Origin: an uncultured Bacilli bacterium
Lineage (GTDB): Bacteria > Bacillota_I > Bacilli_A > RF39 > UBA660
Assembly: GCA_934096605.1 (NCBI GenBank)
Contig: CAKOMI010000002.1
Coordinates: 789-64,788, forward strand
Length of the DNA: 64,000 bases
Direction: 5' to 3'
Position 1 is the stretch's first letter; each line of letters begins with the position of its first letter. The notes below the pieces were generated by a model, which had not been told where the DNA came from, did not search any database, and saw nothing but the letters and a program-made list of their open reading frames with translations. The position numbers and the translations under genes were made by a program. This document shows positions 6,069 through 40,271 of this stretch, piece after piece.

Positions 6069-6099
6069 CATGATATGAGATTGATTAGAGGTGATTTAT

Positions 6100-10564: not shown

Positions 10565-10579
10565 TAAGGAGGAATGAAA

Positions 10580-12239: not shown

Positions 12240-12256
12240 GAATAAGGGGTGATATA

Positions 12257-13363
12257 ATGAATGATGCTGTATTTTCTCAATTAGATTTTGGACCTCTAGA
12301 AGAGTTTTTAAGAGAAGATAATGTAACTGATATCTCCTATACTAATGGAGGACAGGTTTGGTTAAAGACATTAGATAAAGGTGTGTATCAAGTTGATCGC
12401 CCAGAGATAAATAATGCTTTAATGGAAAAGTTAGCATTTCAATGTGCTAATGTTATGGGTAAGACTTTTAATATGGCCCATCCAATGCTCGATGCTGAAA
12501 GTGCAGAGTTACGTCTTAACTTTATACATGATTCTATTGCTACAAATGGCATAGCGTGTGTTATAAGAAAGACGCCAGCCAAAATCAGATTAAATAAAGA
12601 AAAGTTATTAAATGAAAAATATGTTACAAAATCTATTCATGAGTTTTTAATGAAATGTGTTGAAGGACACGCCAATATTATCGTAAGTGGTGAGACTGGC
12701 TCAGGTAAAACAGAACTTGTTAAATATTTAGCTAGTCATATTAAAGAAAATGAAAAGATTATTACAATTGAAGATACACTAGAACTACACTTGGATAGAA
12801 TATTTCCACACCGTGATATTGTAGCTTTAAAAACAAATAATATTGCTAGTTATAGTGACGTTTTAGTGGCTTGTATGCGACAAAACCCAATTTGGATATT
12901 ACTTTCAGAGGTTCGTTCAGCGGAAGCCGTTATGGCGGTTCGTAACTCGATATCTTCTGGACACCACATCTTATCAACCATCCACTCAGATAAAGCAAGT
13001 TTAATTCCGATGCGTATGTTTTCTTTGATTGAAAGTAATATTGACGTTGAACAATTCGTTACGACAATCCATCGTTATGTACAAATTGGTATTTATGTTA
13101 AAGGTTATATGAGTAAGGAACTAGGTAGATTTCAACGTGAGATTTTAGAGGTATGTGAATTTTACGTAGATGAACATAATAAACCACAAGTAAATACAAT
13201 TTATAAAAAGACTTTAACTGGTGATATTACAATGAATAATCCAACTAAGTATTTGAGAGATTATTTAGGAATAAGTGGTATTATTCTTGATGATGACATC
13301 TTTAAATTGGACGAAGGAGCTGTTGATACCAAGGCTCCAGTAGGGTCCATAGAAACACTTTAG
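12257..13363 (+). CDS. tadA: TadA/CpaF/VirB11-family secretion ATPase
   Basis: Walker A GETGSGKTE, Asp box IITIEDTLEL, Walker B/His box region ..ILLSEVR....SGHHILSTIHS. This is the T2SS/T4SS 'E' ATPase fold. Confidence 0.85.
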   Translation: MNDAVFSQLDFGPLEEFLREDNVTDISYTNGGQVWLKTLDKGVYQVDRPEINNALMEKLAFQCANVMGKTFNMAHPMLDAESAELRLNFIHDSIATNGIACVIRKTPAKIRLNKEKLLNEKYVTKSIHEFLMKCVEGHANIIVSGETGSGKTELVKYLASHIKENEKIITIEDTLELHLDRIFPHRDIVALKTNNIASYSDVLVACMRQNPIWILLSEVRSAEAVMAVRNSISSGHHILSTIHSDKASLIPMRMFSLIESNIDVEQFVTTIHRYVQIGIYVKGYMSKELGRFQREILEVCEFYVDEHNKPQVNTIYKKTLTGDITMNNPTKYLRDYLGISGIILDDDIFKLDEGAVDTKAPVGSIETL

Positions 13364-13372
13364 AGGTGGCGT

Positions 13373-14269
13373 ATGATAGAACTTTTATTACTTGTTGGTC
13401 TTGCTGTTTTTGCTCTTAGTTATAGGTTTAATAATGGTGAGAATGTTTATAAATTCTTTGTTACACAAGTAAGTTCTGCATATGATAAATATGCTCCTTA
13501 CTCATTTAAAGAGGTAAGAAAGAAAACTAAGGAACTTGGTCAAGAGTATACAGCTAAACAATATATAGCTCAAGTTGTTGTGTTTGCCGTGGTGGCTTTT
13601 GGTATTACATATTTATATTTTTATAACATTATTATTGCAATTATTTATGCTTTAATTGCTATTGCTTTTATTCCTTATTTAGCTTATTTAAGATGCCAAA
13701 AGGTTTATAGTGAATTTATTTTTGAACAAATTCAAATTTACACGACTAATGTTATTATGGAATTTAATACCACACAGAGTTTTGTTAAATCCTTAGAAGG
13801 TGTTAGAGACTCAGGTATATTAGAAGATCCAGTTTTAAGTGATGTTAAAACAATGATTGATATGTCTTATCAAAATGGTACAATTGATGAATCAGTAGAG
13901 TTTTTTAATCATAAATATCCTTTTTATATGGTTAAGAATATGAATCAATTATTCTTACAAATTACTAAGGAAGGTGCGAAAGACTCAGGACAAGCCCTAG
14001 AAAATATGTCTTTAGATATCGATGCCTTAGTAGAAGGTGTTTATAGAGACCAAATTGATAGAAAAGAGTTTCATCGAAGATTTGTTACATTTGGACTTGC
14101 CTTATTCCTACTTGTTATGGCAATGCAGTTTTTGCTCGGAACGGACTCTTATATTGAGTTACTTGATAATATTTTTGTTCAGCTAATTTTACACGCGATT
14201 ATTATTATTAACTGTTTCTTCTTAGTTAGTGGTGAAAAATTCTACTATGAAGATGTGGGGGTGGAATAA
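13373..14269 (+). CDS. tadB: TadB-like polytopic membrane platform protein
   Basis: Immediately follows the ATPase. It has N- and C-terminal TM clusters flanking a soluble helical domain, the T2SS-F-like topology. Assignment rests on position and topology only. Confidence 0.55.
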   Translation: MIELLLLVGLAVFALSYRFNNGENVYKFFVTQVSSAYDKYAPYSFKEVRKKTKELGQEYTAKQYIAQVVVFAVVAFGITYLYFYNIIIAIIYALIAIAFIPYLAYLRCQKVYSEFIFEQIQIYTTNVIMEFNTTQSFVKSLEGVRDSGILEDPVLSDVKTMIDMSYQNGTIDESVEFFNHKYPFYMVKNMNQLFLQITKEGAKDSGQALENMSLDIDALVEGVYRDQIDRKEFHRRFVTFGLALFLLVMAMQFLLGTDSYIELLDNIFVQLILHAIIIINCFFLVSGEKFYYEDVGVE

Positions 14270-15057
14270 TGTATTGGGAGGTTTTTGCACTAGCTGCAAT
14301 CTTATTATTTGCTCTTAATTATACTGGTAAGATTAGTGCTAATAGGTTTGTGTCTGATAATGAAGTATATTTTCGAAAATTAAAAGAAAGTGATTGGGAT
14401 TTTTATGTTAAAGCTCGTTATGGTGATACTGTAAATCCAGATTTTCTATTTAACAAACGAATTAAAAATGGGTTAGTAACCATTGTTGTTATGTTATGTT
14501 TTTTTATTTCTAACTTGTCATACATTACTATTTTATTCAGTGTTTTAGCAGGTTTCTTAGTATTTAAACTTGATTATTCTAATATTAAAAAATACTATAA
14601 AAGACATTTAAGTGAAATAGATTCAATGTTACCACATTATTTAAAAAGTTTAGAGATTTTGATTCAACACTATACAGTTCCAGTGGCACTTGGTAAAAGT
14701 ATTGAAGATGCTCCACCTATATTTAAAGAAGGATTACAAGAATTAATAACCCAAATTAATGAAGGGGATGATTCAATTAATCCATACATGCAATTTGCTA
14801 GAACTTATCCAGTAAGGGATTCAATGCGAATGATGCGTCTTTTGTATCGTTTATCATTAGGTCGTCAAGAACATAAACAAGAACAATTACTAACATTTTC
14901 GAAGACTATTTCTAATTTACAACAAAAAGCGCGTGAATTAAAATATAAACAACGTCTTGAGAAGATGGAAGGTAAAACAATGAAAATGTTAATTACTACA
15001 GGTTTAGGGGTTATGATTTTGCTAGTCTTTGCGGTTTTAATGATGATGAATATGTAA
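14269..15057 (+). CDS. tadC: TadC-like polytopic membrane platform protein
   Basis: Start overlaps the previous stop (TAATG). Topology is similar to the previous ORF. Last gene before the terminator. Confidence 0.55.
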   Translation: MYWEVFALAAILLFALNYTGKISANRFVSDNEVYFRKLKESDWDFYVKARYGDTVNPDFLFNKRIKNGLVTIVVMLCFFISNLSYITILFSVLAGFLVFKLDYSNIKKYYKRHLSEIDSMLPHYLKSLEILIQHYTVPVALGKSIEDAPPIFKEGLQELITQINEGDDSINPYMQFARTYPVRDSMRMMRLLYRLSLGRQEHKQEQLLTFSKTISNLQQKARELKYKQRLEKMEGKTMKMLITTGLGVMILLVFAVLMMMNM

Positions 15058-15918: not shown

Positions 15919-16173
15919 ATGAAAAAAATATCTATTACTGATTATAATAAGAATATGGGTACATTGATTGATTTGTCCAGTCCACAAGATTTTATCATTA
16001 GTCATGATCCTGATGCAGTAAATATTCCTTATCAAAAATTTATGCTATATTATGATGGCTATTTAAAGAAGGATAAACCTTATTTCTTTATTTGTTCAAA
16101 AGGTGTTCATAGTGCCAAAGTAGTTGGTATGCTTGAATATTTTGGGTATAATGTGACACAAGTTTTACATTAA
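15919..16173 (+). CDS. single-domain rhodanese-like sulfurtransferase
   Basis: ~84 aa. Active-site loop FFICSKGVHS (Cys loop) followed by ..LEYFGY. ATG 15919 lies 5 nt after aggtga. Confidence 0.65.
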   Translation: MKKISITDYNKNMGTLIDLSSPQDFIISHDPDAVNIPYQKFMLYYDGYLKKDKPYFFICSKGVHSAKVVGMLEYFGYNVTQVLH

Positions 16174-16243
16174 ATAAGACTTGTGTTTTTCTTTTTCTTG
16201 CATAGTATACGTTTGTTTGGTATCCTTATACTGGAGGTTAGTT

Positions 16244-17326
16244 ATGGAATATGTAATTATAGGGTTACTTGTAATAGTAATTGTATGTTTAATTGTGGTA
16301 CTTTTAAAAGTAGAAAAAAATACGAAAGGAGATCAAACTGTTAGTGCAGAACTTTTAAAATTTCAAAATGAACTTACAAAAGAAATAGGAGACTTTAAGT
16401 ACGAGTTTAGTGATAAGTTAATGAAAGATTTTAATACTTTAAATGATCGCATTGAATACCGACTTAATTTAATGAATGAAAAAGTTAATACTAGGTTAGA
16501 TGAAAATTTTGATAAAACTAATAAAACTTTTGCAAGTGTGTTAGAGAGACTATCAAAGATTGATGAAGCACAGAAGAAAATAGATAGTTTGTCGACTGAC
16601 ATTGTGTCTTTACAGAGTGTTTTAACTGATAAAAAAACAAGAGGTATTTTTGGCGAGGTTAATTTAAATTATATTTTAACAAGTGTTTTTGGCGAGAATA
16701 ATAGTAAAATATATGAAATTCAATATAAGTTAAGTAATGGTTTTATTGCAGATTCAATATTGCATGCGCCAGAGCCACTTGGTAATATTTGTATTGATTC
16801 TAAGTTTCCTTTAGAAAATTATGAGAGAATGACTAATAAGTCTTTATCATTAAAAGAAAGAGAAGATGCGACTAAATCTTTTAAAGCAGACGTTAAAAAA
16901 CATATTGAGGCTATATCACATAAGTATATAATACCTGGTGAAACGGCTAATCAAGCTATTTTATTTTTACCAGCTGAAGCCATTTTTGCAGAGATTAATG
17001 CTTATCATCCGGATTTAATAACAGAAGCTTATAATAAAAGAGTGTGGATTACATCGCCAACTACTTTAATGAGTACTTTAACAACTATTAATATGATTAT
17101 TAAGAATATGGAAAGAGATAAGTATGCTAAGGTTATTCAGGAAGAATTAGTTAAATTAGCAATTGAATTTAACCGTTATAAAGAAAGATGGGATAAGTTA
17201 TCAAGAAGCATTGATTCCGTAAGCAATGACGTTAGAGATATTCATATTACAACTGATAAAATTACAAAACGATTTGATGCAATTAACCAAGTAGAGATGC
17301 AGACTTTAGAAAATAAAGAAAAATAA
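16244..17326 (+). CDS. rmuC: DNA recombination protein RmuC
   Basis: N-terminal TM, a long coiled coil, and the conserved C-terminal RmuC core (..RGIFGEVNL..IL, DSKFPLENY, ILFLPAEAIFAE, VWITSPTTLM). ATG 16244 follows ctggagg. Confidence 0.85.
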   Translation: MEYVIIGLLVIVIVCLIVVLLKVEKNTKGDQTVSAELLKFQNELTKEIGDFKYEFSDKLMKDFNTLNDRIEYRLNLMNEKVNTRLDENFDKTNKTFASVLERLSKIDEAQKKIDSLSTDIVSLQSVLTDKKTRGIFGEVNLNYILTSVFGENNSKIYEIQYKLSNGFIADSILHAPEPLGNICIDSKFPLENYERMTNKSLSLKEREDATKSFKADVKKHIEAISHKYIIPGETANQAILFLPAEAIFAEINAYHPDLITEAYNKRVWITSPTTLMSTLTTINMIIKNMERDKYAKVIQEELVKLAIEFNRYKERWDKLSRSIDSVSNDVRDIHITTDKITKRFDAINQVEMQTLENKEK

Positions 17327-27766: not shown

Positions 27767-27774
27767 AGGTATTT

Positions 27775-29608: not shown

Positions 29609-29722
29609 CTAAGTATTTTGACTTATTTTTTTATTTGTGTATTATAAAATTTTAAATATTTTCTACAGATAGACTTTTTTATAATAATTTGATAAAATAC
29701 CATTAGAAATGGTGGTGGTCTT

Positions 29723-31912
29723 ATGGATAATGAAGAGTTAGAAGAAAGTGCTAATAAGGCCTCACTGGATAATCAAAAAGAAACTGAAGAGTTAGAAAAT
29801 GAAGGTAATCAGTTTGAAGCTGAGCTAGATACCAAAGATAAAGAAGCTACGTTAACATCAAGTAAAAAAATAATTAATAAACTTTTAAAAAAGAAAGTAA
29901 TAATTATTAGTTTGGTCGTGGCTATTGCTTTATTATTTATCATTATTATGGCTGCTTTATTAAATTCTTCAGGGGTTAATGATTATATTTATAAAAAAAC
30001 TAGTTGCACTAATGTAACTATTCATTATGATCCTTATGGTGACCATGATGACTATGATGAAGAAATGCCTTTAGAAGATTATGTTAAAGGAGCAGTTGTT
30101 GCTTATTTAAATAATTTTACTAGTGATGATACTAGTAATTATCAACTTTATTTTGCTCTTTCTGTTGCTCTTAGAAATGAGGTAATTACTAATAATTGTG
30201 AGGTAACTTATCGTGATAAAACAATTGATAGTAATGTTACTATTGATGACTATTATTTAAATCTTGCCATAACTAATTCATATGGTATTGCCCTAGTTGA
30301 TGAAAATGAAGAGTTTGTTCCAATGCATGTTTCAGATAACTGTTGGTATAATGTGGGAACAATGGAAAATAGTGAAGGGGAAGAGAAAGAATTTCATACT
30401 GTTTTTCAAAAGGATTTAGAAATACCAAGAGATTTTACTAAAAAATATTTTAAAAATACTGTTTATGAAGAGTGTCAATGTAATGCAGATACGGGTGTAA
30501 AAAAGATTGGTGTTAATGCTGCTGAAAATATGTGTTACACTTACTGGATAAAAGAAGAAGAGGAAGGCGGGACAAAAAAAGAGGTTAAATATGAAGAATA
30601 TTTGCATCAAGATGAAGAAGATGGTTTTAGTCTTTATGGCGCTTATTATTTGTTAAAATATCAAGGTTTCACAAATTTAGATATTTTAAAATATTTTACT
30701 AATGATAAGGTAATGTATCGTACTACTAATAAGGATAATGCTAAAAAAGAAGAAGATACAAGTAATAATTTTAATTATAGTTGTTCAGCTTTTAATATAG
30801 GTTCTACTACTTTGTCACGGGAAGAATTTATTGCTAAAGTAGAAAATTATAATAGTAAAAAGACTGATTGGAGTACCTTTAAAAATCATGCTGGTGAAAT
30901 ATATGATTTAGCAGTTAGTAATGGTGTTAATCCTGAATTTATTGTTATCAGAGCTATAGTAGAAGGTATGAGTCCTGGTGGGTCTTCGTATAATTATTAT
31001 GGTATAGGTTGTACTAATACGGGTGGTAGAAATGCTTGTACAGATTATTCTTCATTTAGTGCTGGTGTTTTAGGCATTATATCGTTTATAAAAAAGTATG
31101 ATTCAATTGATTCATTAATGAGTAAATATGCTTATATTGGAACGTACTGGTATAACCCAGGTAGTTCTGGTAAGGGAGGATGCTATTACTATCCTTATAT
31201 TAAAGAATATATGTCACCAGAGCGGTCTAGTGTTGTTGCAAGTGCTTGTAATGGGGCTACATGTAGTGGAACTGATTGTGCTAAAACAACTGATGAAGAT
31301 CAAATGGCTTATACTAAATATCAAGTATCAAAGATGACTGATTATCGTTCTTCAGTTTTTGGAATTAAAGAAAATGTTTGTACAAATGATACGATGACAG
31401 TTGATAAATGTATTATTTATGCTCAAAGTGATAAAAGATGGGGACATTACTTGCTTGGAAATAGTAAAGATACAACAATTAGTCAGGCAGGTTGTGCCGT
31501 ATCAAGTGTGGCTATTGCTCTTACTTGTACTGGTAAAATGAGTGATACGTCAAGTTTCTCACCTAAAGTATTAAATGACACTTTAAAATTAAGTGGTGGT
31601 TTTGATGGAGCGGCTATTGTTTGGAATAACAGTGGTATCAGAGAATTCGTACCAAGTTTTAGAGTAGACAGAGATATTAGTTTAAGTGGGGCTAGTATGG
31701 AAGAAAAATTAAATGCTCTAAATGCTTCTCATGAAAAATCTAATCGAATTGGTATTGTACATATTTCTAACTCAGAACACAAAACCCATTTCGTTGTTTT
31801 AAATACTTACAATCCTACTAGTAAAACATTCACTTGCCTAGATCCAGCCGGTGGTAAAATAAATACATATTCTATAAATGATTTAGATCGAATTATCTAT
31901 TATACATATTAA
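29723..31912 (+). CDS. membrane-anchored multidomain cell-wall hydrolase (SpoIID-like + glucosaminidase/lysozyme-like + C39-like peptidase domains)
   Basis: Acidic N-terminus plus TM. EDYVKGAVVAYLN..YFALSVALRNE is SpoIID/LytB-like. GVNPEFIVIRAIVEGMSPGG..YNYYGIG is glucosaminidase-like. C-terminal IIYAQSDKRWGHYLLG...ISQAGCAVSSVAIAL is the Peptidase_C39_2-like Cys motif. Confidence 0.65.
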   Translation: MDNEELEESANKASLDNQKETEELENEGNQFEAELDTKDKEATLTSSKKIINKLLKKKVIIISLVVAIALLFIIIMAALLNSSGVNDYIYKKTSCTNVTIHYDPYGDHDDYDEEMPLEDYVKGAVVAYLNNFTSDDTSNYQLYFALSVALRNEVITNNCEVTYRDKTIDSNVTIDDYYLNLAITNSYGIALVDENEEFVPMHVSDNCWYNVGTMENSEGEEKEFHTVFQKDLEIPRDFTKKYFKNTVYEECQCNADTGVKKIGVNAAENMCYTYWIKEEEEGGTKKEVKYEEYLHQDEEDGFSLYGAYYLLKYQGFTNLDILKYFTNDKVMYRTTNKDNAKKEEDTSNNFNYSCSAFNIGSTTLSREEFIAKVENYNSKKTDWSTFKNHAGEIYDLAVSNGVNPEFIVIRAIVEGMSPGGSSYNYYGIGCTNTGGRNACTDYSSFSAGVLGIISFIKKYDSIDSLMSKYAYIGTYWYNPGSSGKGGCYYYPYIKEYMSPERSSVVASACNGATCSGTDCAKTTDEDQMAYTKYQVSKMTDYRSSVFGIKENVCTNDTMTVDKCIIYAQSDKRWGHYLLGNSKDTTISQAGCAVSSVAIALTCTGKMSDTSSFSPKVLNDTLKLSGGFDGAAIVWNNSGIREFVPSFRVDRDISLSGASMEEKLNALNASHEKSNRIGIVHISNSEHKTHFVVLNTYNPTSKTFTCLDPAGGKINTYSINDLDRIIYYTY

Positions 31913-31927
31913 GGAAGGAGCATTTTT

Positions 31928-32677
31928 ATGAGTAAAAAGAATTTTAAAATAGTTACCTCAGTAATTATAGTATGTCTTATTTATTTTATAATAATATTTA
32001 TTTATATGATGAATAATAAGACTACAAAAGGTTATATTCTTAACTCTAATTTAGGGGGATTCTACTGTAAACAAAAGAAATGTGAATTTGTTTCTCAGAG
32101 TGATATCAAAATAAACAATTCTTATGCTTTATTTCAATATGGTGAATATGTGAGTGATTATACACCAACTTTGGTTGCTGATAAGTGGAATTTTAAAAAA
32201 AGTGAAAACTATGAAAGCATATATGGTGACTTTTTAGCGATTGATGAAAAATTAAACTATCAATATATACCTATGCAAAAAGAGGCTCTTAATACTGATG
32301 ATATTTTGCTTCTTCAAAAAACTACACAAATAAACTTTTCTAAATTAGATAATTCTTATAAAATAGCTGTAGATTTAGATAGTAATGGCGTAAGAGATTA
32401 TATTTATACTTTATCTAATCAAGTTGATGATGGTATTTCTAGCGAATATTTTTCTGTATTTTATGTTTCTTTAAATGGCGAATTGTTAACTATTTATAAT
32501 GATAAAAATAAAGATGCTGATAATTATGAACTTCCATTTTATAGCGTAGCGGGTATTTTGAAAGTTGATTCAGTACCTAAAATAATTATTAATAAAACTT
32601 ATTATAGTAATATGGGAGAATCTAGTACGATGATATTTACTGTTCTTAAAAAAAATATAAAAAATGATGAAAGTTAA
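31928..32677 (+). CDS. hypothetical single-pass membrane protein
   Basis: N-terminal TM (IVTSVIIVCLIYFIIIFIYMM). No family recognised. Confidence 0.5.
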   Translation: MSKKNFKIVTSVIIVCLIYFIIIFIYMMNNKTTKGYILNSNLGGFYCKQKKCEFVSQSDIKINNSYALFQYGEYVSDYTPTLVADKWNFKKSENYESIYGDFLAIDEKLNYQYIPMQKEALNTDDILLLQKTTQINFSKLDNSYKIAVDLDSNGVRDYIYTLSNQVDDGISSEYFSVFYVSLNGELLTIYNDKNKDADNYELPFYSVAGILKVDSVPKIIINKTYYSNMGESSTMIFTVLKKNIKNDES

Positions 32678-32735
32678 AAATAGTTTTTAATTTAACTATT
32701 TTATTGTATAATACTAATTGAATTGGAGGAATTAT

Positions 32736-34979
32736 ATGAAATTTCGTGTATCTTCTAAAGACTTTACAATATTTGTAGTCTTTTGTATATTTTTACTTTA
32801 TTTATGCGCTATTGCGGTATTAAACTTTTCATCTTTTGCGGATGATGGTTCGTTTTATGGTTTAAACCCTTTTCCTGCTTTTGGAAAAGATTATATTATT
32901 TTAACTTTATTTATGTTTGCTGTAGCGTTAGTTATTATATTTTCTAGTGTATCTTCTTATATATTTGATAAAGATAAAAGTGGTAAGAAATTTATAAACA
33001 TTGGTGATAAGGAAGAAAAAGGTTATTCAAGATGGGCTAAAGAAAAAGAAATTAAAAGTGCCAAAGACGTTGTTCATGTTAAAACTATTGATCAAAATGT
33101 TGAAGGAGCAGGTGTTCCTTTGATTAACAATGGTACTGATGTTTGGGTTGATAATTCAGATTATCACACAATGATAATAGGTTCTACTGGTTCTGGTAAA
33201 ACTGAATGTATTGTAAAACCCCAAGTTAACCTTTTAGCCAAAAAAGGCGAGAGTATGGTTATTAATGACCCTAAAGGTGAGCTATATAAATATTGTGGTG
33301 ATTACTTAAAAGAACAAGGCTATAATATTGTTGTTTTAAATTTCCGTGATCCTACAGAAGGTAATTCTTGGAATCCTCTTTCTATGCCATACTATTATTA
33401 TAAAAATGGTAATACTGATAAAGCGATTGAGTTACTTGAGGATATAGCTAATAATATTTTAGTTGACCCTAAAAATAAAGACTCAGCTTTCTGGGAACAA
33501 TCTGGTGCCGATTATTTTGCCGGTCTTGCCCTAGCTTTATTTAGAGATGGTAAAGAAGAAGAAATAAATTTAAACTCAATTAATTTAATGAGTACTGTTG
33601 GTGAAGAAAGAATTGGGGCTAAAACTTACGTTCAAGAATATTTCAATATGAAAGGGGAAGCTTCACCAGAATATATCTTTGCCTCAACTACTTTTAATGC
33701 ACCTAGTGATACAAAAGGAGGCATTCTATCTACTTTTAGACAAAAAATTCGTATTTTTGCTTCCCGTGAAAAATTATCAGAAATGCTTTCTTATAGTGAT
33801 TTTGATATGCGTAGTATTGGTGAGAAAAAAACAGCTGTCTTCTTAATTGTGCATGATGAAAAAACAACTTACCATAGTTTACTTACTGTCTTTTTAAAAC
33901 AATGTTATGAAACTTTAGTTGAAGTTGCCCAAACAAGTGGTGGTAAATTAAAGTATCGTACTAATTTCATTCTTGATGAGTTTGCTAACATGCCTCCTTT
34001 AAGTGATGTTGATTCCATGGTTTCAGCTGCTCGTAGTAGAAGTATTAGATTTACCTTTATTATTCAAAACTTTTCGCAATTAAATGACGTTTATGGTAAA
34101 GAGGTTGCCCAAACTATTCGTGGTAACTGTGGTAATACAATTTACTTAATAAGCACGGAAATGGCCGCCTTAGAAGAAATAAGTAAAATGTGTGGTGAAG
34201 TTAAAAGTAAAGACAAAGATAAAACAGCTTCTACACCACTTGTTACTGTAACTGACTTACAAAAAATGAAATTGTTCCAAGCTATAATTATGCGTATTCG
34301 TATGGCTCCATATAAAGTGCAATATACGCCAGATTTCAAAATTAACTGGGGTATTGAAAGAAAAGATTTTCCATTTCCTCATCGGGAAGAAAAGACTGTT
34401 TCAACATTTGATTTAAAAACTTTTGTTTCGGAAGCAAAAAGACGACAAATGATGGAAAATGCTCAAAATGGTACGTCTAATCCTAGTCCATTTAATCCTT
34501 TTGGTGGTATGGGTATGGGAGCTAATCCTTTTATGAGTGGTATGAATAGCATGAATCCTTTTGGTGGCCTTGGTAATTTAGAAACACCTACTAAGCCAGT
34601 AACAACAGAAGAACCCGTTAAAGCTAATGGTTTAGGTATTAATGCACCAAATAAGCCACTTTCTGCCTTAACTAACGATGAAATAGATAAAATGATAGCG
34701 GATATTGATAAAAAATTAGCTGAATTAGATGCAGAAGAACAAAAAGAAAAAGAAAAACAAAAAGAAATTCAACAAGAAGAGCAAAAAATAATCGAAAAAG
34801 AGGAACCAAAGACACCAATTGAATTACCAAAATTAGAAGAAGATGAACTAAAAAAGAAAGAACCGGAAAAATTAGAAAATAATAAACCAAAAATAAATGT
34901 TGACGTTGATTCCATTGTTATGAATGATAATGTTATTACTGACGATGAGTTCTTCGATGATTTCTTTGGTGATGAATAA
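32736..34979 (+). CDS. type IV secretion coupling protein (VirD4/TraG/TcpA-like T4CP)
   Basis: Two N-terminal TMs. Walker A IIGSTGSGKTE, then NDPKGELY, Walker B FILDEFANMPPL, then RSRSIRFTFIIQNFSQLNDVYG and RGNCGNTIYL. C-terminal low-complexity tail (NPFGGMGMGANPF.., EK-rich). ATG 32736 follows ttggagga. Confidence 0.9.
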   Translation: MKFRVSSKDFTIFVVFCIFLLYLCAIAVLNFSSFADDGSFYGLNPFPAFGKDYIILTLFMFAVALVIIFSSVSSYIFDKDKSGKKFINIGDKEEKGYSRWAKEKEIKSAKDVVHVKTIDQNVEGAGVPLINNGTDVWVDNSDYHTMIIGSTGSGKTECIVKPQVNLLAKKGESMVINDPKGELYKYCGDYLKEQGYNIVVLNFRDPTEGNSWNPLSMPYYYYKNGNTDKAIELLEDIANNILVDPKNKDSAFWEQSGADYFAGLALALFRDGKEEEINLNSINLMSTVGEERIGAKTYVQEYFNMKGEASPEYIFASTTFNAPSDTKGGILSTFRQKIRIFASREKLSEMLSYSDFDMRSIGEKKTAVFLIVHDEKTTYHSLLTVFLKQCYETLVEVAQTSGGKLKYRTNFILDEFANMPPLSDVDSMVSAARSRSIRFTFIIQNFSQLNDVYGKEVAQTIRGNCGNTIYLISTEMAALEEISKMCGEVKSKDKDKTASTPLVTVTDLQKMKLFQAIIMRIRMAPYKVQYTPDFKINWGIERKDFPFPHREEKTVSTFDLKTFVSEAKRRQMMENAQNGTSNPSPFNPFGGMGMGANPFMSGMNSMNPFGGLGNLETPTKPVTTEEPVKANGLGINAPNKPLSALTNDEIDKMIADIDKKLAELDAEEQKEKEKQKEIQQEEQKIIEKEEPKTPIELPKLEEDELKKKEPEKLENNKPKINVDVDSIVMNDNVITDDEFFDDFFGDE

Positions 34980-35008
34980 AATCTAGTTATTATAGCTAGA
35001 TTTTTTTT
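34978..35008 (+). terminator. intrinsic terminator after the T4CP gene
   Basis: aaatctag-ttattatag-ctagattt followed by ttttt. Confidence 0.6.
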
Positions 35009-35050
35009 CTATTATTGTGCTATAATTTTGGTGATATAGAGGGTGATAAT

Positions 35051-36634
35051 GTGATACTAAAAAAACCATATGCTTTTCTAATTAAACATTTTAAAGCAAT
35101 TCATTTATTTTTAGGTGCAGTACTTACTTACTTAATCTTTAGAACTGGTCTAATAGTTAATTTTTTCCAAACATATATTAAAGCTAATTATTATACAAGT
35201 GAGGTAAACTTACCTGGCATATATATCAATATATTTATGTATTTGGCTATAGTATTTGCTTTATTTTTGAGCTTTGCAGTTTACTTTTTAATGAAGCAAA
35301 AAGAAAAAGATACTAAATTTTATTTTTTTATTATCTTTTATTATATTCTTCTACTAGTAGCTATAACTTTTTGCTATAGTATTTTACAAAATATTGAATC
35401 AGCAACTTTAGGAGCTCAGGTTATCAGAGTTTACCGTGATATTTCTTTTATTTTCTATTTACCTCAGTTTTTCTTTACTGGTTACTCATTTTTAAGAGGT
35501 ATTGGTTTTGATATTAAAAAATTTAATTTTGAAAGTGATGCGAAGGAATTAGAAATAACTGATTTAGATAGTGAAGAATTTGAACTTACTTTTGGCAAAG
35601 ATTCTTATAAATATAAAAGAAAAATAAGAAGGTTTATTAGAGAATTTAAATATTATGTTTTAGAAAATAAACTATCATTTATTATTTTAAGTTCGATATG
35701 TGTAGTCATTGTAGGTGTTTTATTATATTTGAATTTTGGGGTTTATCATAAAACTTACCGAGAGACCTCAAAGATTAATCATAATCACTTAGTTGTTCAA
35801 GTTATGGATTCAGTACTAACGCCATTTGATTCAGGTGGTAAAACAATTGATGGCAAATACTATTTAGCCATAGCTTTTAAAATAAAAAATACTAGTACTA
35901 AAGATACAGCTTTAGATTATGAAAACTTTAAACTTGAAGTATCAAAAAGAAAAATAGCTCCAACCTTAGATCGCTCTAGTTATTTTCCTTTGTTAGGTAT
36001 TGGTTATACTAGAGATACAACTATTTTAGCTGGTAGTGAGTCTACTTACGTTATTCCTTATGAAATTGATGAATCATTTTTGAATCAAAAAATAGTTTTA
36101 AAAATATTAGATTCTTTAACTTATGAAATAGGTAGTATTACCCCTATATATAAAACAGTTAATTTAAATTATGATAAAATACTTAATAATAAAGAAATTA
36201 GAACAGTTAATAAAGGTAAAATATTAGAGCTTTCAAAAACTTTACTTGGTTTAACACAAGTACAAATAAATGATGTGAAAACTAACTCTTCTTATGAATA
36301 TCAATATAGATCATGTAAACAAGGAATTTGTCAAGATTTAAAAGATCGAGTAGTAGCTAGTCAATCTAAAAAGTTATTAATATTAAATAGAATGTTTACA
36401 ATGGATGAATACACTAATTATTATATGGCTAAAAAAGGATCAGGATCTTTTGTTAATGATTTTGTTACTATTAAATACAAAGATACTGAAATTAAGCCTA
36501 AAGACGTAACACCTAAAAACTTAAAAGATTATTGGCTATTTGAAGTTCCAGAAGACTATCAAATTTCTAATAGTGAACTTTTAATAACTATTTGTGGAGA
36601 AATATATAAGATGAAATTAGATGGGAGTGAATAA
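35051..36634 (+). CDS. polytopic membrane protein with large extracytoplasmic beta-rich C-terminal domain (hypothetical)
   Basis: GTG 35051 follows gagggtga. ~5 TMs in the first 170 aa, one more at ~aa 215-235, then a soluble ~300-aa domain. No family recognised. Confidence 0.55.
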   Translation: MILKKPYAFLIKHFKAIHLFLGAVLTYLIFRTGLIVNFFQTYIKANYYTSEVNLPGIYINIFMYLAIVFALFLSFAVYFLMKQKEKDTKFYFFIIFYYILLLVAITFCYSILQNIESATLGAQVIRVYRDISFIFYLPQFFFTGYSFLRGIGFDIKKFNFESDAKELEITDLDSEEFELTFGKDSYKYKRKIRRFIREFKYYVLENKLSFIILSSICVVIVGVLLYLNFGVYHKTYRETSKINHNHLVVQVMDSVLTPFDSGGKTIDGKYYLAIAFKIKNTSTKDTALDYENFKLEVSKRKIAPTLDRSSYFPLLGIGYTRDTTILAGSESTYVIPYEIDESFLNQKIVLKILDSLTYEIGSITPIYKTVNLNYDKILNNKEIRTVNKGKILELSKTLLGLTQVQINDVKTNSSYEYQYRSCKQGICQDLKDRVVASQSKKLLILNRMFTMDEYTNYYMAKKGSGSFVNDFVTIKYKDTEIKPKDVTPKNLKDYWLFEVPEDYQISNSELLITICGEIYKMKLDGSE

Positions 36635-36640: not shown

Positions 36641-37078
36641 TGGCAAGAAGAGGAGTTTAGGCAAAAACATGGCTTAAAACCTTGTGCTTTTTTAACTGAG
36701 TGGAATGTTAGATATGGAGCAGCTGGGATTCAATATTTAGATATGTGTCTTACACAAAGATTAAGTGATTTTGCTACTGCTGGTTGTATCAATCAAGTGC
36801 AATATTTAGTACTTTTACATTTAGTAAGTCGGCACTTAGGCTATACACCTGGTCGTTTTACTTGGTTTTATAACAATATTCAAATATATGATAGACATAT
36901 TGATTCTGTAAAAGAAATGTTAAATAGAGAACCGGTTGACTGTCAACCAGAAATAGTGTTAAATCCTGATAAAACTGACTTTTATGATTTTACAGTAGAA
37001 GATATTCAAATTAAGGGCTATCCAAGAAAAAGAATTCGGGAGAAAAATCCTCAGTTAAAGTTTGAAATAGGTATCTAG
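36641..37078 (+). pseudogene. thyA: thymidylate synthase (ThyA-family) 3' remnant lacking the N-terminal half
   Basis: The translation WQEEEFRQKHGLKPCAFLTEWNV...LTQRLSDFATAG.INQVQY..LLHLV....G..PG.F.W...N.QIYDRH.......L.REP aligns to the TS core from the catalytic Cys (L-x-P-C) onward. There is no N-terminal dUMP/folate-binding half and no start or RBS. It begins right after the stop of the upstream ORF. Confidence 0.65.
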
Positions 37079-37670: not shown

Positions 37671-37699
37671 TTGATATTTATTTAAAAAAAAGTTATAAT
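37671..37699 (+). promoter_or_regulatory. promoter of the pilin module
   Basis: TTGATA (37671-76), 17-nt spacer, TATAAT (37694-99). Confidence 0.5.
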
Positions 37700-37725: not shown

Positions 37726-37971
37726 ATGAAAGAAGCGACTGGTGAATTAAATATGACTGTTGTTACTGTAGTAGCAATTGCTGCCGTAGCTGCATTCTTT
37801 TATGCCTTTATTTGGCCAAGTATCAAAGGAACCATAACTGCTAGTACTAGATGCTCTATGGCTGTTAATTGTAATGATGACTATACTCAATGTCACTATA
37901 CTGATGAAAGTGGTACAGAGTCAACAGAAACAATAAATTGCAAAACATATTTTGAAAGTGCTAATAAATAA
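37726..37971 (+). CDS. Flp-size pilin-like protein 1 (non-canonical MKEATG leader)
   Basis: Strong RBS taggagga. 81 aa: MKEATG-ELNMTVVTVVAIAAVAAFFYAFIW, then a short mature domain with 4 Cys. Confidence 0.6.
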   Translation: MKEATGELNMTVVTVVAIAAVAAFFYAFIWPSIKGTITASTRCSMAVNCNDDYTQCHYTDESGTESTETINCKTYFESANK

Positions 37972-37987
37972 TAATTAGGAGGTAAAT

Positions 37988-38230
37988 ATGAAAGAGGCGA
38001 CTGGTGAGTTAAATACTATGGTTATTGTGGTAATTATTGTGGCTATGCTAGTAGCCTTCTTTTACTTTACCATATGGCCTGCTATTAAAAATAACATGAA
38101 TCAAAATAGTGCATGTGCAAGAGCTATATGTCCTAAAGAAAACAGAAGCAGTGATGGTAGAACAGTTGATTGTTATGTTTATGAAAACAATCAAAAATCA
38201 GATACCTTTAAATGTGTATGGAAGGGTTAA
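37988..38230 (+). CDS. Flp-size pilin-like protein 2 (tandem paralog)
   Basis: RBS taggaggt. 80 aa: MKEATG-ELNTMVIVVIIVAMLVAFFYFTIW, 4 Cys in the mature part. Confidence 0.6.
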   Translation: MKEATGELNTMVIVVIIVAMLVAFFYFTIWPAIKNNMNQNSACARAICPKENRSSDGRTVDCYVYENNQKSDTFKCVWKG

Positions 38231-38245
38231 TAAAGGGGTGAAATT

Positions 38246-38758
38246 ATGCGAGAAGCCATAGGTGGTACATGGTTATTTCAAATTGTTATTATATTCATTC
38301 TGTTATTTACAGGATTTATGTGCCTTTCTATTAATCGTTCCAAGGCATTTAATGTTAAGGATGAAATTATTCAAACAATTCAAAGTTATAATGGTATTGA
38401 CTTACAAAAAGATTATAGTGATGGTGATGTTGGCCCTTTAGCAGATATTGTTACTTATATTAAAGATAATTCATATCGGACTGTTGGGGTAAAACCACAA
38501 GCAATAAAAAATGTTGGTGGTGATAGTGTTGAATATACATGCTTTAATAAAGATGGGAAGAATACCTCATCTAATCCAGTTTTTTGTATTGCACCTGTTA
38601 GTTCTAAGAATGATGCTGGTGATAACTTTAAAGAATTACCGGATATGATTTATTATCGTGTGGTTGTTTTTTATCAGCTTGATTTACCAGTTTTTCATGA
38701 TTTGTTTAATTTTCGGGTAGTAGGAGATACAAAAACCCTTTATGGAGGTAGAAAATGA
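38246..38758 (+). CDS. TadE/TadF-size pseudopilin-like protein 1
   Basis: MREAIGG-TWLFQIVIIFILLFTGFMCLSIN. 170 aa, coupled to the next ORF (ATGA). Confidence 0.55.
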   Translation: MREAIGGTWLFQIVIIFILLFTGFMCLSINRSKAFNVKDEIIQTIQSYNGIDLQKDYSDGDVGPLADIVTYIKDNSYRTVGVKPQAIKNVGGDSVEYTCFNKDGKNTSSNPVFCIAPVSSKNDAGDNFKELPDMIYYRVVVFYQLDLPVFHDLFNFRVVGDTKTLYGGRK

Positions 38759-39225
38759 GACAGGCAATAGGTACAACATGGGTAATGCAGTTAGTAATAA
38801 TATTTATGTTAATCTTTGTTGCTTTCTTAGCTTTAACAATTAACTATACGAAAGCTTTTAAAGTGAAAAATGAATTAGTTACTATTGTTGAAAAGTATGA
38901 AGGTATTCAAACAAAGTCAGGTGGTTCGATTGAATTAATCAATAATTATTTAAGTTATAATGGTTATGGTACGATGAAGGCTTGTGAAACTGGTTATTAT
39001 GGTGTAGATAATTTAAATGATCCTACTCTTAAAGAGGTTGTGAAAGGTCAAAAATACTACTATTGTATTAAGCCAATTTCATCAAAAAGTACATCGACAC
39101 CTAACCGAGAAAAATATAAAATTCAAATATTTTTTAAATTTAGTTTGCCTGTAATAGGGGATATATTCACGTTTGCTGTTGAAGGAACAACAATTGATAT
39201 TACAAACCCTAATAGTGAAATATAG
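38755..39225 (+). CDS. TadE/TadF-size pseudopilin-like protein 2
   Basis: MRQAIG-TTWVMQLVIIFMLIFVAFLALTIN. Paralog of the previous ORF (..KAF.VK.E......Y.G.., YYC/FCI.P.SSK). Confidence 0.55.
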   Translation: MRQAIGTTWVMQLVIIFMLIFVAFLALTINYTKAFKVKNELVTIVEKYEGIQTKSGGSIELINNYLSYNGYGTMKACETGYYGVDNLNDPTLKEVVKGQKYYYCIKPISSKSTSTPNREKYKIQIFFKFSLPVIGDIFTFAVEGTTIDITNPNSEI

Positions 39226-39233
39226 GAGGAATT

Positions 39234-40271
39234 ATGAATGTTAAAATAGTAAATAAATATGCTGCTTTATTAGCAGGACTTGATATTGATTTTATTAAAA
39301 GTATTGATGGTGAATTTACTCCTGAAGATATCGTTATGCAATTTTCTAATTTTTTCTTTAATAAGATGATTATTGATATAACAGCTATCAAAGGGTATCA
39401 AGACATTACTAAAATTCAAGAATTATCAGTCAACATGGATATGAGTAAAGTTATTCTTCTTTTAGATGATTCTGAGGTTGTTAATAGCCCTAGATATTTA
39501 TCTCAACTAGTTTCAATGGGAATATATAACTTTACTAGAAATGTTGATGCCATTAAATTTTTAATTGATAATCCTAATTCATATAAAGATGTGGCCCAGT
39601 ACCATCAATTAAATAATCAAATGATGAGTTATCCAGAGACTTCTAAAAATGTTTCTAACGATATGGCTGATGGTTCTTATGCTTCACCAACTATTATTTA
39701 TGAAGAAAGAAATTTAAGAATTATTGGGATAAAAAATGTTACTGAACATGCTGGTAGTACAACTTTAACATACTTACTTAAGAAACAATTAGAAAAGAAA
39801 TATCGCGTTGTTGCTGTTGAGGTTGATGATAATGACTTTATGTTTTTTAACGATAAATCTCTAAAGCATACTAATCATATGGAACTTCAAAACTTTATTG
39901 CGGCAAATTACAATGCTGACGTTATATTGGTCGACTTAAATAATCAAGGCCCTGTTGCGGCTTGCAATGAGGTATTATATTTAATAGAGCCAGGTCTTAT
40001 AAAATTAAATAAATTAATAAGAAAAGACAAAAAAGCTTTTGAAAAGTTAAAAGGAGAAAAAATAATTCTTAATAGAAGTGTTTTAAATAGTACTGATGTG
40101 GCTGATTTTGAATATGAGTCACGGAGTAAAGTATATTATAATATTCCATATTTAGATGATAAACTTGACAATAATCATGTTTTAAATGAATTACTTATTA
40201 AAATGGGTTTTGCAAGATTAGATGAAGATAATTCTGAAAAGGGTGGCAAACTATTTAGTATATTTAAATAG
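39234..40271 (+). CDS. tadZ: TadZ/CpaE-like ParA/MinD-family protein with degenerate P-loop
   Basis: N-terminal receiver-like domain. The C-terminal MinD/ParA-like domain RIIGIKNVTEHAGSTTLTYLL..VVAVEVDD..VILVDLN has a deviant Walker A lacking the Lys. It sits directly after the pilin genes. Confidence 0.5.
   Translation: MNVKIVNKYAALLAGLDIDFIKSIDGEFTPEDIVMQFSNFFFNKMIIDITAIKGYQDITKIQELSVNMDMSKVILLLDDSEVVNSPRYLSQLVSMGIYNFTRNVDAIKFLIDNPNSYKDVAQYHQLNNQMMSYPETSKNVSNDMADGSYASPTIIYEERNLRIIGIKNVTEHAGSTTLTYLLKKQLEKKYRVVAVEVDDNDFMFFNDKSLKHTNHMELQNFIAANYNADVILVDLNNQGPVAACNEVLYLIEPGLIKLNKLIRKDKKAFEKLKGEKIILNRSVLNSTDVADFEYESRSKVYYNIPYLDDKLDNNHVLNELLIKMGFARLDEDNSEKGGKLFSIFK

What the first reader, a model, noticed from the sequence alone, without database searches (positions are those of the whole stretch)
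29723..36634. Orphan VirD4/TraG-type coupling protein with a three-domain wall hydrolase and membrane proteins, lying between the two Tad-like modules
ORF 32736..34979 is an unambiguous T4CP (two TMs, GSTGSGKTE, DPKGE, LDEFANMP, IIQNFSQL, RGNCG). Upstream are a 729-aa membrane-anchored hydrolase combining SpoIID-like, glucosaminidase-like and C39-like peptidase domains, and a bitopic protein. The hydrolase is analogous in logic to the multi-domain hydrolases of Gram-positive conjugation systems such as CwlT, PrgK and TcpG. Downstream is a polytopic protein with a large external domain. No VirB4-type ATPase, relaxase, oriT or integrase is visible. Instead, the only secretion ATPase in the neighbourhood is the TadA/VirB11-like protein at 12257, and the pilin module starts 1 kb downstream. 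A T4CP combined with a Tad-like filament would be an unusual pairing, possibly a DNA or protein translocation device built on a type IVc pilus. It could equally be a decayed conjugative element. No repeat of the tRNA-Asn 3' end that would mark island borders was seen near 29.6 kb.
Basis: partly seen in the sequence, partly recalled or inferred. Interest (0 to 1): 0.65.

Follow-up and report, generated by a model that had tools for sequence, protein, structure and literature searches.

The report
Split-off piece of chromosomal secretion machine
The coupling ATPase, wall hydrolase and membrane proteins are real, but they are one detached piece of a large chromosomal type IV secretion system fused to a Tad-like pilus operon. 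Hundreds of uncultured gut Bacilli species carry this system, and the missing VirB4 motor lies elsewhere in the genome of at least one close relative.

Summary
ORF 32736-34979 is a VirD4-type coupling protein (T4CP). It is preceded by a membrane-anchored three-domain wall hydrolase and a bitopic protein, and followed by a polytopic protein. The window has no VirB4, relaxase, integrase or att repeat.

The "orphan" reading does not hold. In close relatives the Tad-like genes, the pilin genes and hydrolase-X-T4CP form one contiguous operon. In more distant relatives a full VirB4-type T4SS module sits between the CpaE-like gene and the hydrolase. That module comprises a VirB2-like array, a VirB6-like protein, PrgI, a TraC-like protein and VirB4. 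Together they make a roughly 30 kb super-operon just upstream of rhodanese-RmuC.

The window's clade has lost that module from this locus. In Ca. Ventrenecus stercoripullorum, a clade member, the same assembly carries it on another contig next to pyruvate kinase. The VirB4 and T4CP trees agree with this. The T4CP shows no relaxed selection.

The region is therefore a fission product of a vertically inherited T4SS with no relaxase found near it. It is neither a decayed conjugative element nor shown to be a VirB4-free device. The conserved fusion of a Tad-like pilus with a T4SS in gut Bacilli was not found in the literature searched and resembles the Patescibacteria T4SS.

The parts
29723..31912 (+). 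Membrane-anchored multi-domain wall hydrolase (729 aa). It has a cytoplasmic N-terminus, a TM region at about residues 50-87, a SpoIID-like domain (86-345), a GH73-like glucosaminidase domain (350-555) and a C39-like Cys/His peptidase domain (556-729). In the profile alignment to 4rwr, a Tyr aligns with the Glu of the VASEM stretch of SpoIID.
   Evidence: domain profiles against PDB and Pfam. (hydropathy). Searches show that proteins at the same position in relatives carry SpoIID, Peptidase_M23, Glucosaminidase or lysozyme domains.
31928..32677 (+). Bitopic protein X (249 aa). It has an N-terminal TM helix and an external domain with conserved Cys. A protein of this size always lies between the hydrolase and the T4CP. 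Its fold is unknown.
   Evidence: positional conservation, family alignment A7. (no PDB match). (TM).
32736..34979 (+). VirD4-type coupling protein (747 aa). It has two TM helices and an intact NBD. The C-terminal 190 aa is low-complexity, with NPF repeats, and ends in a conserved acidic tail, DDEFFDDFFGDE.
35015..36634 (+). Polytopic membrane protein Y (539 aa) with four predicted TM helices and a C-terminal external domain of about 300 aa. It is the variable cargo-like position downstream of the T4CP. Relatives have unrelated proteins of 289 or 650 aa there, or none.
6091..15057 (+). First part of the same ancestral operon. In order: a 255-aa anchored protein, a 1088-aa secreted protein, DUF5411, two RcpC/CpaB-like proteins, a TadA/CpaF/VirB11-family ATPase (12257-13363), and two polytopic TadB/TadC-like proteins (13373-14269 and 14269-15057).
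   Evidence: It is contiguous with the T4CP module in relatives.
37726..40271 (+). Second part of the same ancestral operon. It holds two short pilins (leader MKEATG|ELN), two pseudopilin-like proteins (MREAIGG.., MRQAIGT..) and a CpaE/TadZ-like protein whose C-terminal half has a MinD/ParA-like fold and a degenerate P-loop.
   Evidence: In relatives it lies directly upstream of the hydrolase or of the VirB2-like array.
15919..17326 (+). Rhodanese (15919-16164) and RmuC (16181-17326). They are the ancestral downstream flank of the T4CP. Here they adjoin the TadC-like gene instead, which marks the rearrangement.
36743..37078 (+). Fragment of thymidylate synthase (C-terminal third only) between Y and the pilin genes. 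It is read here as a rearrangement scar.
   Evidence: Pfam positions 164-257 of 266.
29618..29645 (+). Promoter-like site (TTGACT-16-TATTAT) after an inverted repeat at the end of der (29582-29636). It suggests the hydrolase-X-T4CP-Y block is now its own transcription unit. A second, stronger promoter-like site lies at 37671-37699 before the pilin genes. A terminator-like hairpin lies at 40270-40293 after the CpaE-like gene.
   Evidence: These are consensus matches only. The number of promoter-like sites is no higher than in shuffled sequence.

Best explanation
The region is the distal module (wall hydrolase, bitopic protein X, VirD4-type coupling ATPase, variable membrane protein Y) of a chromosomal type IV secretion system. 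The system is vertically inherited in a large group of uncultured gut Bacilli, including Ca. Ventrenecus and Ca. Caccenecus.

In its complete form the system is one super-operon of about 30 kb, just upstream of rhodanese-RmuC. It contains, in order:
- Tad-like filament genes: secreted proteins, DUF5411, RcpC-like proteins, a TadA/VirB11-family ATPase, two platform proteins, pilins, pseudopilins and a CpaE-like protein.
- A T4SS channel module: VirB2-like array, VirB6-like, PrgI/VirB3-like, TraC-like and VirB4.
- Hydrolase-X-T4CP.

In the window's clade the channel module left this locus. In one clade member it sits next to pyruvate kinase. In this genome the remainder has been further cut into three pieces: 6.1-15.1 kb, 29.7-36.6 kb and 37.7-40.3 kb.

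Inferred mechanism:
- The hydrolase opens the wall locally.
- The T4CP hexamer, anchored by two helices, selects cytoplasmic substrates and feeds them to the unlinked VirB4/VirB6 channel.
- The Tad-like filament supplies cell contact.

No relaxase, oriT or integrase accompanies the system in any locus seen. It is therefore probably used for something other than self-transfer of a mobile element. I favour contact-dependent export of protein or nucleoprotein to a neighbouring cell.

What is shown: gene identities, the ancestral contiguity, the relocation of VirB4 in a clade member, and purifying selection. What is inferred: that this genome also has the VirB4 module, the division of labour among the parts, and the substrate.
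For: - Contiguous Tad-pilin-CpaE-hydrolase-X-T4CP-rhodanese-RmuC in loci L005-L008, L011, L012, L016 and L019, whose T4CPs are 71-78% identical to the window's.
- The full super-operon, with the VirB2-like array, VirB6-like, PrgI, TraC-like and VirB4 between CpaE and the hydrolase, in L089 and L090.
- Of 41 VirB4 loci with enough upstream sequence, 18 have Tad-like genes directly upstream.
- T4CP orthologues occur in at least 227 species-representative genomes. Among the 80 retrieved loci and the VirB4-centred loci, the T4CP is almost always followed by rhodanese.
- In the T4CP tree the window's clade is monophyletic and nested in VirB4-linked clades, sister to L001/L027.
- The unlinked VirB4 modules L091, L093 and L094 take the matching position in the VirB4 tree. 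A second unlinked pair of clades behaves the same way.
- VirB4 P0250 is named Ca. Ventrenecus stercoripullorum and lies on GCA_018712835.1 contig DVGF01000025 (L175). That is the same assembly as the window-clade T4CP locus L009 on DVGF01000061.
- For equal RmuC divergence, the T4CP core is at least as conserved in the window's clade as in VirB4-linked genomes: 0.82 against 0.79, and 0.79 against 0.67. The catalytic motifs are kept.
- No relaxase, integrase or att repeats in the window. None appears in the gene tables of related loci.
- The best plasmid T4CP is only 32% identical.
Against: - The VirB4 module was not seen in the window's own genome. Only 64 kb was available and no tool could search the rest of it.
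- The link in Ca. Ventrenecus rests on two contigs of one metagenome bin.
- A relaxase could lie elsewhere in these genomes. Only neighbourhoods were examined.
- The Tad-like label is soft. The ATPase scores equally against CpaF and VirB11. The platform proteins and pilins hit no curated family. No prepilin peptidase was found.
- Nothing tests whether the filament and the T4SS cooperate physically.
- In 23 of 41 informative VirB4 loci the Tad-like genes are not adjacent.
Confidence: 0.72

Rival explanations
1. VirB4-independent device. After the channel module left, the T4CP, hydrolase and X work directly with the Tad-like ATPase, platform and filament as a DNA or protein translocator built on a type IVc-like pilus.
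For: - In most clade members CpaE-hydrolase-X-T4CP are directly contiguous with the Tad-like genes, as if one operon.
- L064, from a different branch, independently shows TadC-hydrolase-X-T4CP with neither pilins nor VirB4 between them.
- The T4CP is under undiminished constraint.
Against: - A clade member keeps a highly conserved VirB4 module elsewhere: 90% identical to other clade VirB4s, with full VirB2-like, VirB6-like, PrgI and TraC-like partners.
- Tree congruence suggests this is general for the clade.
- The adjacency is most simply the residue of deleting or moving the middle of an ancestral operon.
- I know of no precedent for a T4CP docking on a Tad platform. That last point rests on my own knowledge, not on a test.
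Confidence: 0.1
2. Decayed or domesticated remnant of an integrative conjugative element whose VirB4, relaxase and integrase were lost. The T4CP would now be non-functional or on its way out.
For: - No VirB4, relaxase or integrase in the window.
- A thyA fragment and a scrambled gene order nearby point to local rearrangement.
- An AbiE toxin-antitoxin pair lies 6 kb upstream.
Against: - The same chromosomal slot is occupied in the 80 species-representative loci examined, of at least 227 genomes with the T4CP.
- T4CP identity is 54-90% and tracks species divergence. There is no relaxation relative to RmuC and the motifs are intact.
- No att or tRNA repeats. GC content is uniform.
- The arrangement is found on 23 contigs.
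- The nearest plasmid T4CP is 32% identical.
Confidence: 0.03
3. The complete Tad-like plus T4SS system is a bona fide conjugation or chromosomal DNA-transfer apparatus, whose relaxase is encoded far away or belongs to an unrecognised family.
For: - The T4CP belongs to the CD1115 family of conjugative VirD4-like proteins.
- Its conserved acidic C-terminal tail recalls the TraD tail that binds the relaxosome protein TraM. That comparison is from my own knowledge.
- The Pfam TraG-D_C 'TraM recognition' domain is present.
Against: - No relaxase family hit in any of the annotated neighbourhoods examined.
- The system is fixed in the chromosome rather than mobile.
- The analogous Patescibacteria system is interpreted as non-conjugative for the same reasons (PMC12102498).
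Confidence: 0.15

Closest known systems
Gram-positive (MPF-FA/FATA) conjugative T4SSs: pCF10 Prg/Pcf, pIP501 Tra, ICEBs1 Con, and C. difficile and B. thuringiensis elements with CD1115-family T4CPs
   Same: - A VirD4-type T4CP with an N-terminal membrane anchor. It passes the CD1115 equivalog.
- A membrane-anchored multi-domain wall hydrolase next to it, the same logic as PrgK, CwlT and TcpG.
- Relatives add VirB4, VirB6-like, PrgI/VirB3-like and TraC-like genes in the usual order.
   Different: - No relaxase, oriT, integrase or replication genes.
- Fixed chromosomal site and vertical inheritance.
- At most 32% identity to any plasmid T4CP.
- VirB2-like pilin arrays and an adjoining Tad-like operon.
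- A different hydrolase domain set (SpoIID-like, GH73-like, C39-like) that is swapped between species.
Chromosomal T4SS of Patescibacteria (PMC12102498)
   Same: - An MPF-FATA-like VirB4 system fixed in the chromosome of a whole lineage.
- Usually no relaxase.
- Arrays of divergent VirB2-like pilins.
- Variable gene arrangements, with the T4CP sometimes unlinked from VirB4.
- Type IV pili implicated alongside it.
   Different: - A different phylum: Bacilli with sporulation genes in the window.
- A Tad-like filament operon physically fused to the T4SS.
- Whether these Bacilli depend on other cells is unknown.
Tad/Flp (type IVc) pilus systems (Aggregatibacter Tad, Caulobacter Cpa)
   Same: - A CpaF/TadA-family ATPase (PDB CpaF, E=5e-18).
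- Two small polytopic platform-like proteins.
- Weak RcpC/CpaB-like hits.
- A CpaE/TadZ-like protein with a MinD/ParA-like fold.
- Very short pilins plus two pseudopilin-like proteins.
   Different: - The ATPase scores equally well as VirB11.
- No T2SSF, Flp or TadE Pfam hits.
- The leader is MKEATG|ELN rather than the Flp G/XXXXEY motif.
- No prepilin peptidase or secretin in the window.
T4SS assisted by a separate type IV pilus: the IncI plasmid R64 thin pilus, and Sulfolobales Ups pili with the Ced importer
   Same: A type IV-filament machine encoded with, or working alongside, a VirB4-type transfer system and supplying cell contact. This is as summarised in PMC12102498.
   Different: - Those pili are type IVb or archaeal Ups, not Tad-like.
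- R64 is a plasmid with a relaxase.
- The Ced system imports DNA.
- Cooperation between the two machines is untested here.

Membership tests
VirD4/TraG-type coupling protein (T4CP) | Pfam T4SS-DNA_transf / TrwB_AAD_bind nucleotide-binding domain scoring above the gathering threshold | tested here: met
   182 bits against a cut-off of 20.1, and 97.7 bits against 20.5.
VirD4/TraG-type coupling protein (T4CP) | Curated equivalog model (NCBIfam NF045973, CD1115 family) | tested here: met
   301.5 bits against a cut-off of 250.
VirD4/TraG-type coupling protein (T4CP) | N-terminal transmembrane anchor and intact Walker A/B motifs | tested here: met
   Two hydrophobic helices. GSTGSGKTE and LDEFANMP are conserved in the orthologues.
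VirD4/TraG-type coupling protein (T4CP) | A VirB4-type T4SS in the same genome | tested here: inconclusive
   Absent from the 64-kb window. Present on another contig of the same assembly in a clade member and supported by tree congruence. The rest of this genome could not be searched.
Integrative conjugative or mobilisable element | Relaxase (MOB family) and oriT | tested here: not met
   No relaxase family hit among the window ORFs of 100 aa or more that do not lie inside a longer ORF, nor in the gene tables of related loci. oriT was not searched for as such.
Integrative conjugative or mobilisable element | Integrase or recombinase and flanking att or tRNA-derived repeats | tested here: not met
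   No integrase hit. No boundary repeats. The tRNA-Asn 3' end is unique in the window.
Integrative conjugative or mobilisable element | Patchy distribution and variable insertion site | tested here: not met
   Same flank (rhodanese-RmuC) in the 80 species-representative loci examined, of at least 227 genomes with the T4CP. The T4CP tree is structured into deep clades.
Gram-positive T4SS wall hydrolase (functional class of PrgK, CwlT, TcpG) | Membrane anchor plus at least two wall-cleaving domains, encoded beside the T4SS ATPases | tested here: met
   TM region. GH73-like domain, E about 6e-4, with an invariant Glu. C39-like Cys/His domain. Directly after VirB4 and before the T4CP in relatives. 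Enzymatic activity was not tested. In the alignment to 4rwr a Tyr aligns with the Glu of the VASEM stretch of SpoIID; that this Glu is the catalytic residue is from my own knowledge.
Tad/Flp (type IVc) pilus | TadA/CpaF-type ATPase | tested here: inconclusive
   Pfam T2SSE 1.4e-27. PDB CpaF 5e-18 against VirB11 4e-17. The best NCBIfam hit is VirB11, far below its cut-off.
Tad/Flp (type IVc) pilus | TadB/TadC platform proteins (T2SSF domain) | tested here: inconclusive
   No Pfam or NCBIfam hit. Size, position and polytopic topology fit.
Tad/Flp (type IVc) pilus | Flp pilin with the G/XXXXEY processing motif, and a TadV prepilin peptidase | tested here: not met
   The leader is MKEATG followed by ELN and there is no EY motif. 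Only a weak archaeal Pilin_N hit, E=0.0076. No A24 peptidase among the scanned window ORFs.
Tad/Flp (type IVc) pilus | RcpC/CpaB and CpaE/TadZ accessory proteins | tested here: inconclusive
   RcpC scores 22.9 and 26.6 bits, below the 28.8 cut-off. The CpaE-like model (pLDDT 70.6) matches MinD, FlhG and ParA at E about 2e-4 and target-normalised TM 0.4-0.56.

The most novel reading that the evidence does not exclude
The Tad-like filament machine and the VirB4/T4CP secretion system are two halves of one integrated, vertically inherited, contact-dependent transfer organelle. It would be specific to a large group of uncultured gut Bacilli and used for something other than plasmid conjugation, for example attaching to and exchanging protein or DNA with neighbouring cells, as proposed for Patescibacteria. 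In the window's clade the T4CP-hydrolase module stays with the filament genes because it docks on or is co-assembled with them.
Probability: 0.25. Interest if true: 0.8.

Novelty: new variant of a known kind. Interest (0 to 1): 0.5.

Why it matters
- The apparent paradox of a coupling protein without a secretion channel comes from operon fission. Scans of a single window will meet this trap again.
- The analysis also uncovers a lineage-wide chromosomal type IV secretion system with no relaxase found nearby. It carries VirB2-like pilin arrays and is ancestrally fused to a Tad-like pilus operon, in common but uncultured gut Bacilli.
- I found no description of this system in the literature searched.
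- It parallels the recently described Patescibacteria T4SS. That suggests co-option of the monoderm conjugation machinery for a cellular, non-conjugative function has happened more than once.
- It gives a defined gene set for asking what these organisms exchange with their neighbours or host.

Tried and rejected
- Whole-protein searches of the hydrolase against Pfam, NCBIfam and PDB found nothing significant. Only domain-wise profiles worked.
- A single-sequence AlphaFold model of the hydrolase was unusable (pLDDT 36.9), so no fold search was run on it.
- Protein X: a pooled alignment of all proteins at that position was too heterogeneous. The subgroup profile found no PDB relative. Whether X is VirB8-like stays open.
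- A search for island borders found only chance-level AT-rich matches (direct and inverted repeats, tRNA-Asn 3' end).
- I tried to tie the unlinked VirB4 loci L091, L093 and L094 to the window's clade through shared flanking genes. None were shared. The link came from assembly accessions instead.
- A second look-up, P0243, fell in a MAG (CANQEG01) that is not among my T4CP loci, so it gave no second genome-level confirmation.
- I considered a spoIIIA-like sporulation channel for the ATPase module. I rejected it because the gene content does not fit and no Spore_III family hits appeared.
- The promoter scan is uninformative in this AT-rich DNA: 80 sites found against 81.5 expected.

Full report
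**What is in the window.** The window is AT-rich chromosome (about 28% GC) with uniform composition. It carries ordinary housekeeping and sporulation genes: der, dacB, spmA/B, uvrB, tex, asnB, cotJB/JC, infC and rplT. The flagged region holds four co-directional ORFs.

- ORF 32736-34979 is a VirD4-type coupling protein. Pfam gives T4SS-DNA_transf E=2.5e-53, plus TrwB_AAD_bind and TraG-D_C. It passes NCBIfam NF045973, 'VirD4-like, CD1115 family', at 301.5 bits against a cut-off of 250.
- It has two N-terminal hydrophobic helices and a GGAGG site before the ATG.
- The C-terminal 190 residues are low-complexity, with NPF repeats, and end in an invariant acidic tail, DDEFFDDFFGDE.
- The 729-aa upstream protein has no significant whole-protein hit. 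BLAST against positional homologues shows three separable modules.
- Domain profiles link residues 86-345 to SpoIID (4rwr, E=2e-4) and residues 350-555 to GH73 endo-beta-N-acetylglucosaminidases (7pj3/4q2w, E about 6e-4). Pfam Glucosaminidase also hits 3 of 10 homologue segments below threshold.
- Residues 556-729 match Peptidase_C39_2. The window's domain scores 21.7 bits and five of ten homologue segments pass the 24-bit cut-off. Cys and His are invariant.
- In the alignment to 4rwr a Tyr aligns with the Glu of the VASEM stretch of SpoIID. From my own knowledge that Glu is the catalytic residue, so the N-domain may bind rather than cut.
- The 249-aa protein has one TM helix. The 539-aa protein has four, plus an external domain of about 300 aa.
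- No VirB4, relaxase or integrase is present. This rests on Pfam scans of the ORFs of 100 aa or more that do not lie inside a longer ORF and on tblastn with VirB4, PrgI and TraC-like. There are no boundary repeats and no copy of the tRNA-Asn 3' end.

**What relatives show.** The T4CP has thousands of homologues. A scan of species-representative genomes found relatives in at least 227 of them. All are uncultured gut 'Bacilli' or 'Tenericutes' MAGs, including Ca. Ventrenecus stercoripullorum and Ca. Caccenecus avistercoris.

I called and clustered the ORFs of 88 loci and mapped reference proteins by tblastn. The T4CP is almost always followed by an 85-aa rhodanese gene, and often by RmuC. It therefore sits at a fixed chromosomal site.

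The order is RcpC-RcpC-ATPase-TadB-like-TadC-like-pilin-pilin-pseudopilin-pseudopilin-CpaE-like-hydrolase-X-T4CP-rhodanese-RmuC.
- In relatives at 54-67% identity the hydrolase is preceded by a typical monoderm T4SS module: VirB2-like proteins, a VirB6-like protein of about 700-800 aa, PrgI/VirB3-like, TraC-like and VirB4.
- Looking upstream from the CpaE-like gene in those genomes (L089, L090) shows the full picture. The Tad-like genes, the T4SS module and hydrolase-X-T4CP lie in one block of about 30 kb.
- Of 41 VirB4 loci with enough upstream sequence, 18 have the Tad-like genes directly upstream. These include the deep branches of the T4CP tree.

The fused arrangement is thus probably ancestral, with several later fissions.

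**Is the T4CP orphan?** In an NJ tree of 120 distinct T4CPs the window's clade is monophyletic. It is nested among VirB4-linked clades and sister to L001/L027. None of its members with upstream sequence has VirB4 nearby.

A metagenome scan with a VirB4 alignment found some VirB4 modules not followed by hydrolase-T4CP. In the VirB4 tree one such group (L091, L093, L094) is sister to the VirB4s of L001, L090 and L027, which is exactly the position expected for the window's clade. A second unlinked group (L098, L100, L102) mirrors a second clade of unlinked T4CPs.

Searching with the L091 VirB4 then gave direct links.

- P0250 is named Ca. Ventrenecus stercoripullorum. It lies on GCA_018712835.1 contig DVGF01000025 (L175).
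- That is the same assembly as the window-clade T4CP locus L009, on DVGF01000061.
- There the module (T4SS_pilin, three further proteins, VirB6-like, PrgI-like, TraC-like, VirB4) lies between pyruvate kinase and dnaB/dnaI-like genes.
- P0241's loci show the same module after pyruvate kinase.

So the clade did not lose the channel module; it moved. I could not search the rest of the window's own genome, so the module's presence there is an inference, which I put at about 0.8.

**Is the T4CP still in use?** For pairs of genomes with equal RmuC divergence, the T4CP core is at least as conserved within the window's clade as among VirB4-linked genomes. The values are 0.82 against 0.79 at 70-80% RmuC identity, and 0.79 against 0.67 at 60-70%. 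The catalytic motifs are retained.

The exact protein, with the same neighbours, is found on 23 contigs that were read. The best plasmid-borne T4CP is 32% identical. These facts exclude a decaying mobile-element remnant.

**How the window differs.** Compared with the contiguous form, this genome has three changes.

- The Tad-like ATPase and platform part (6.1-15.1 kb) is still next to rhodanese-RmuC.
- The hydrolase-X-T4CP block has been moved about 14 kb downstream, behind der. It has a species-specific membrane protein attached.
- The pilin-to-CpaE part is placed after it, separated by a thyA fragment and a 170-aa ORF.

Close relatives show other permutations (L009, L013, L017), so the locus is rearrangement-prone. 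Promoter-like sites precede the hydrolase and the pilins, and a terminator-like hairpin follows the CpaE-like gene. These are consensus matches only.

**How Tad-like is it?**

- The ATPase matches CpaF, VirB11 and FlaI about equally.
- The two platform-like proteins and the pilins hit no curated family.
- The RcpC hits are below threshold.
- The CpaE-like model (pLDDT 70.6) has a MinD/ParA-like C-terminal half.
- The pilins share an unusual leader, MKEATG|ELN, and the pseudopilins share MRE/QAIGG/T.
- No prepilin peptidase was found.

I therefore call it a Tad-like (type IVc or archaeal-type) filament module, not a member of the Tad family proper.

**Mechanism.**

- Shown: gene identities, ancestral contiguity, relocation of the channel module in a clade member, and purifying selection.
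- Inferred: the hydrolase opens the wall; the T4CP selects cytoplasmic substrates and passes them to the unlinked VirB4/VirB6 channel; the filament supplies contact.

No relaxase, oriT or integrase accompanies any version of the locus. I therefore favour a non-conjugative use, namely export of protein or nucleoprotein to a contacted cell. This is the argument made for the Patescibacteria T4SS, which shares MPF-FATA affinity, VirB2-like arrays, lack of a relaxase and variable linkage of the T4CP (PMC12102498). Conjugation with a distant or unrecognised relaxase remains possible, as does direct use of the Tad-like machine by the T4CP.

**Novelty.** The T4CP and the hydrolase are new members of known kinds. 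The lineage-wide chromosomal fusion of a Tad-like filament operon with a T4SS that has no relaxase nearby was not found in four literature searches. I rate it a new variant of a known kind. The specific claim that made the finding exciting, a T4CP without VirB4, is most likely an effect of looking at one window.

Noticed in passing
window 43563-47692: The first 90 or so codons of uvrB, plus about 50 nt upstream, are duplicated almost exactly (43563-43901 against the start of the full gene at 45710-47692). The copies flank a 507-aa ORF (44097-45620) with no family hit. It looks like an insertion of about 2.1 kb with a long target duplication.
   Followed up: partly
window 36743-37078: A thymidylate synthase fragment covering only Pfam positions 164-257 of 266. 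It lies between the T4CP block and the pilin genes and is probably a rearrangement scar.
   Followed up: no
window 41214-42197: A SipW/archaeal-type signal peptidase I lies 1 kb downstream of the pilin module. A homologue also lies near the T4CP in L083. No classical prepilin peptidase was found, so who processes the odd-leader pilins is open.
   Followed up: no
window 37726-39225 and related loci: The pilins share the leader M-K-E-A-T/S-G followed by E-L-N. The pseudopilin-like proteins share M-R-E/Q-A-I-G-G/T-T-W. Both are conserved across distant species.
   Followed up: partly
L180 2316-6375 (CANQEG010000011.1): Proteins in the array position upstream of VirB6-like and VirB4 carry Peptidase_M15_4, T6SS_VgrG3-like_C and Peptidase_C39_2 domains. 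Wall-degrading domains in the pilin-array position hint at action on another cell's wall.
   Followed up: no
related loci L001-L170; window 15919-16164: An 85-aa rhodanese-domain gene follows the T4CP in nearly every relative. In the window it stayed with RmuC. Whether this is functional coupling or mere synteny is unknown.
   Followed up: no
window 22684-24111: An AbiEi/AbiEii toxin-antitoxin pair lies inside the housekeeping block between the two halves of the system.
   Followed up: no
window 27302-28251: Two genuine type IV pilin genes with the N_methyl motif lie just upstream of der. They are distinct from the odd-leader pilins and belong to another type IV filament system.
   Followed up: no
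L064 (JAFUTV010000004.1): A distant species shows DUF5411-RcpC-RcpC-ATPase (540 aa)-TadB-TadC-hydrolase-X-T4CP. Neither pilins, nor a CpaE-like gene, nor VirB4 lies between TadC and the hydrolase. This is an independent second case of T4CP-Tad adjacency.
   Followed up: no
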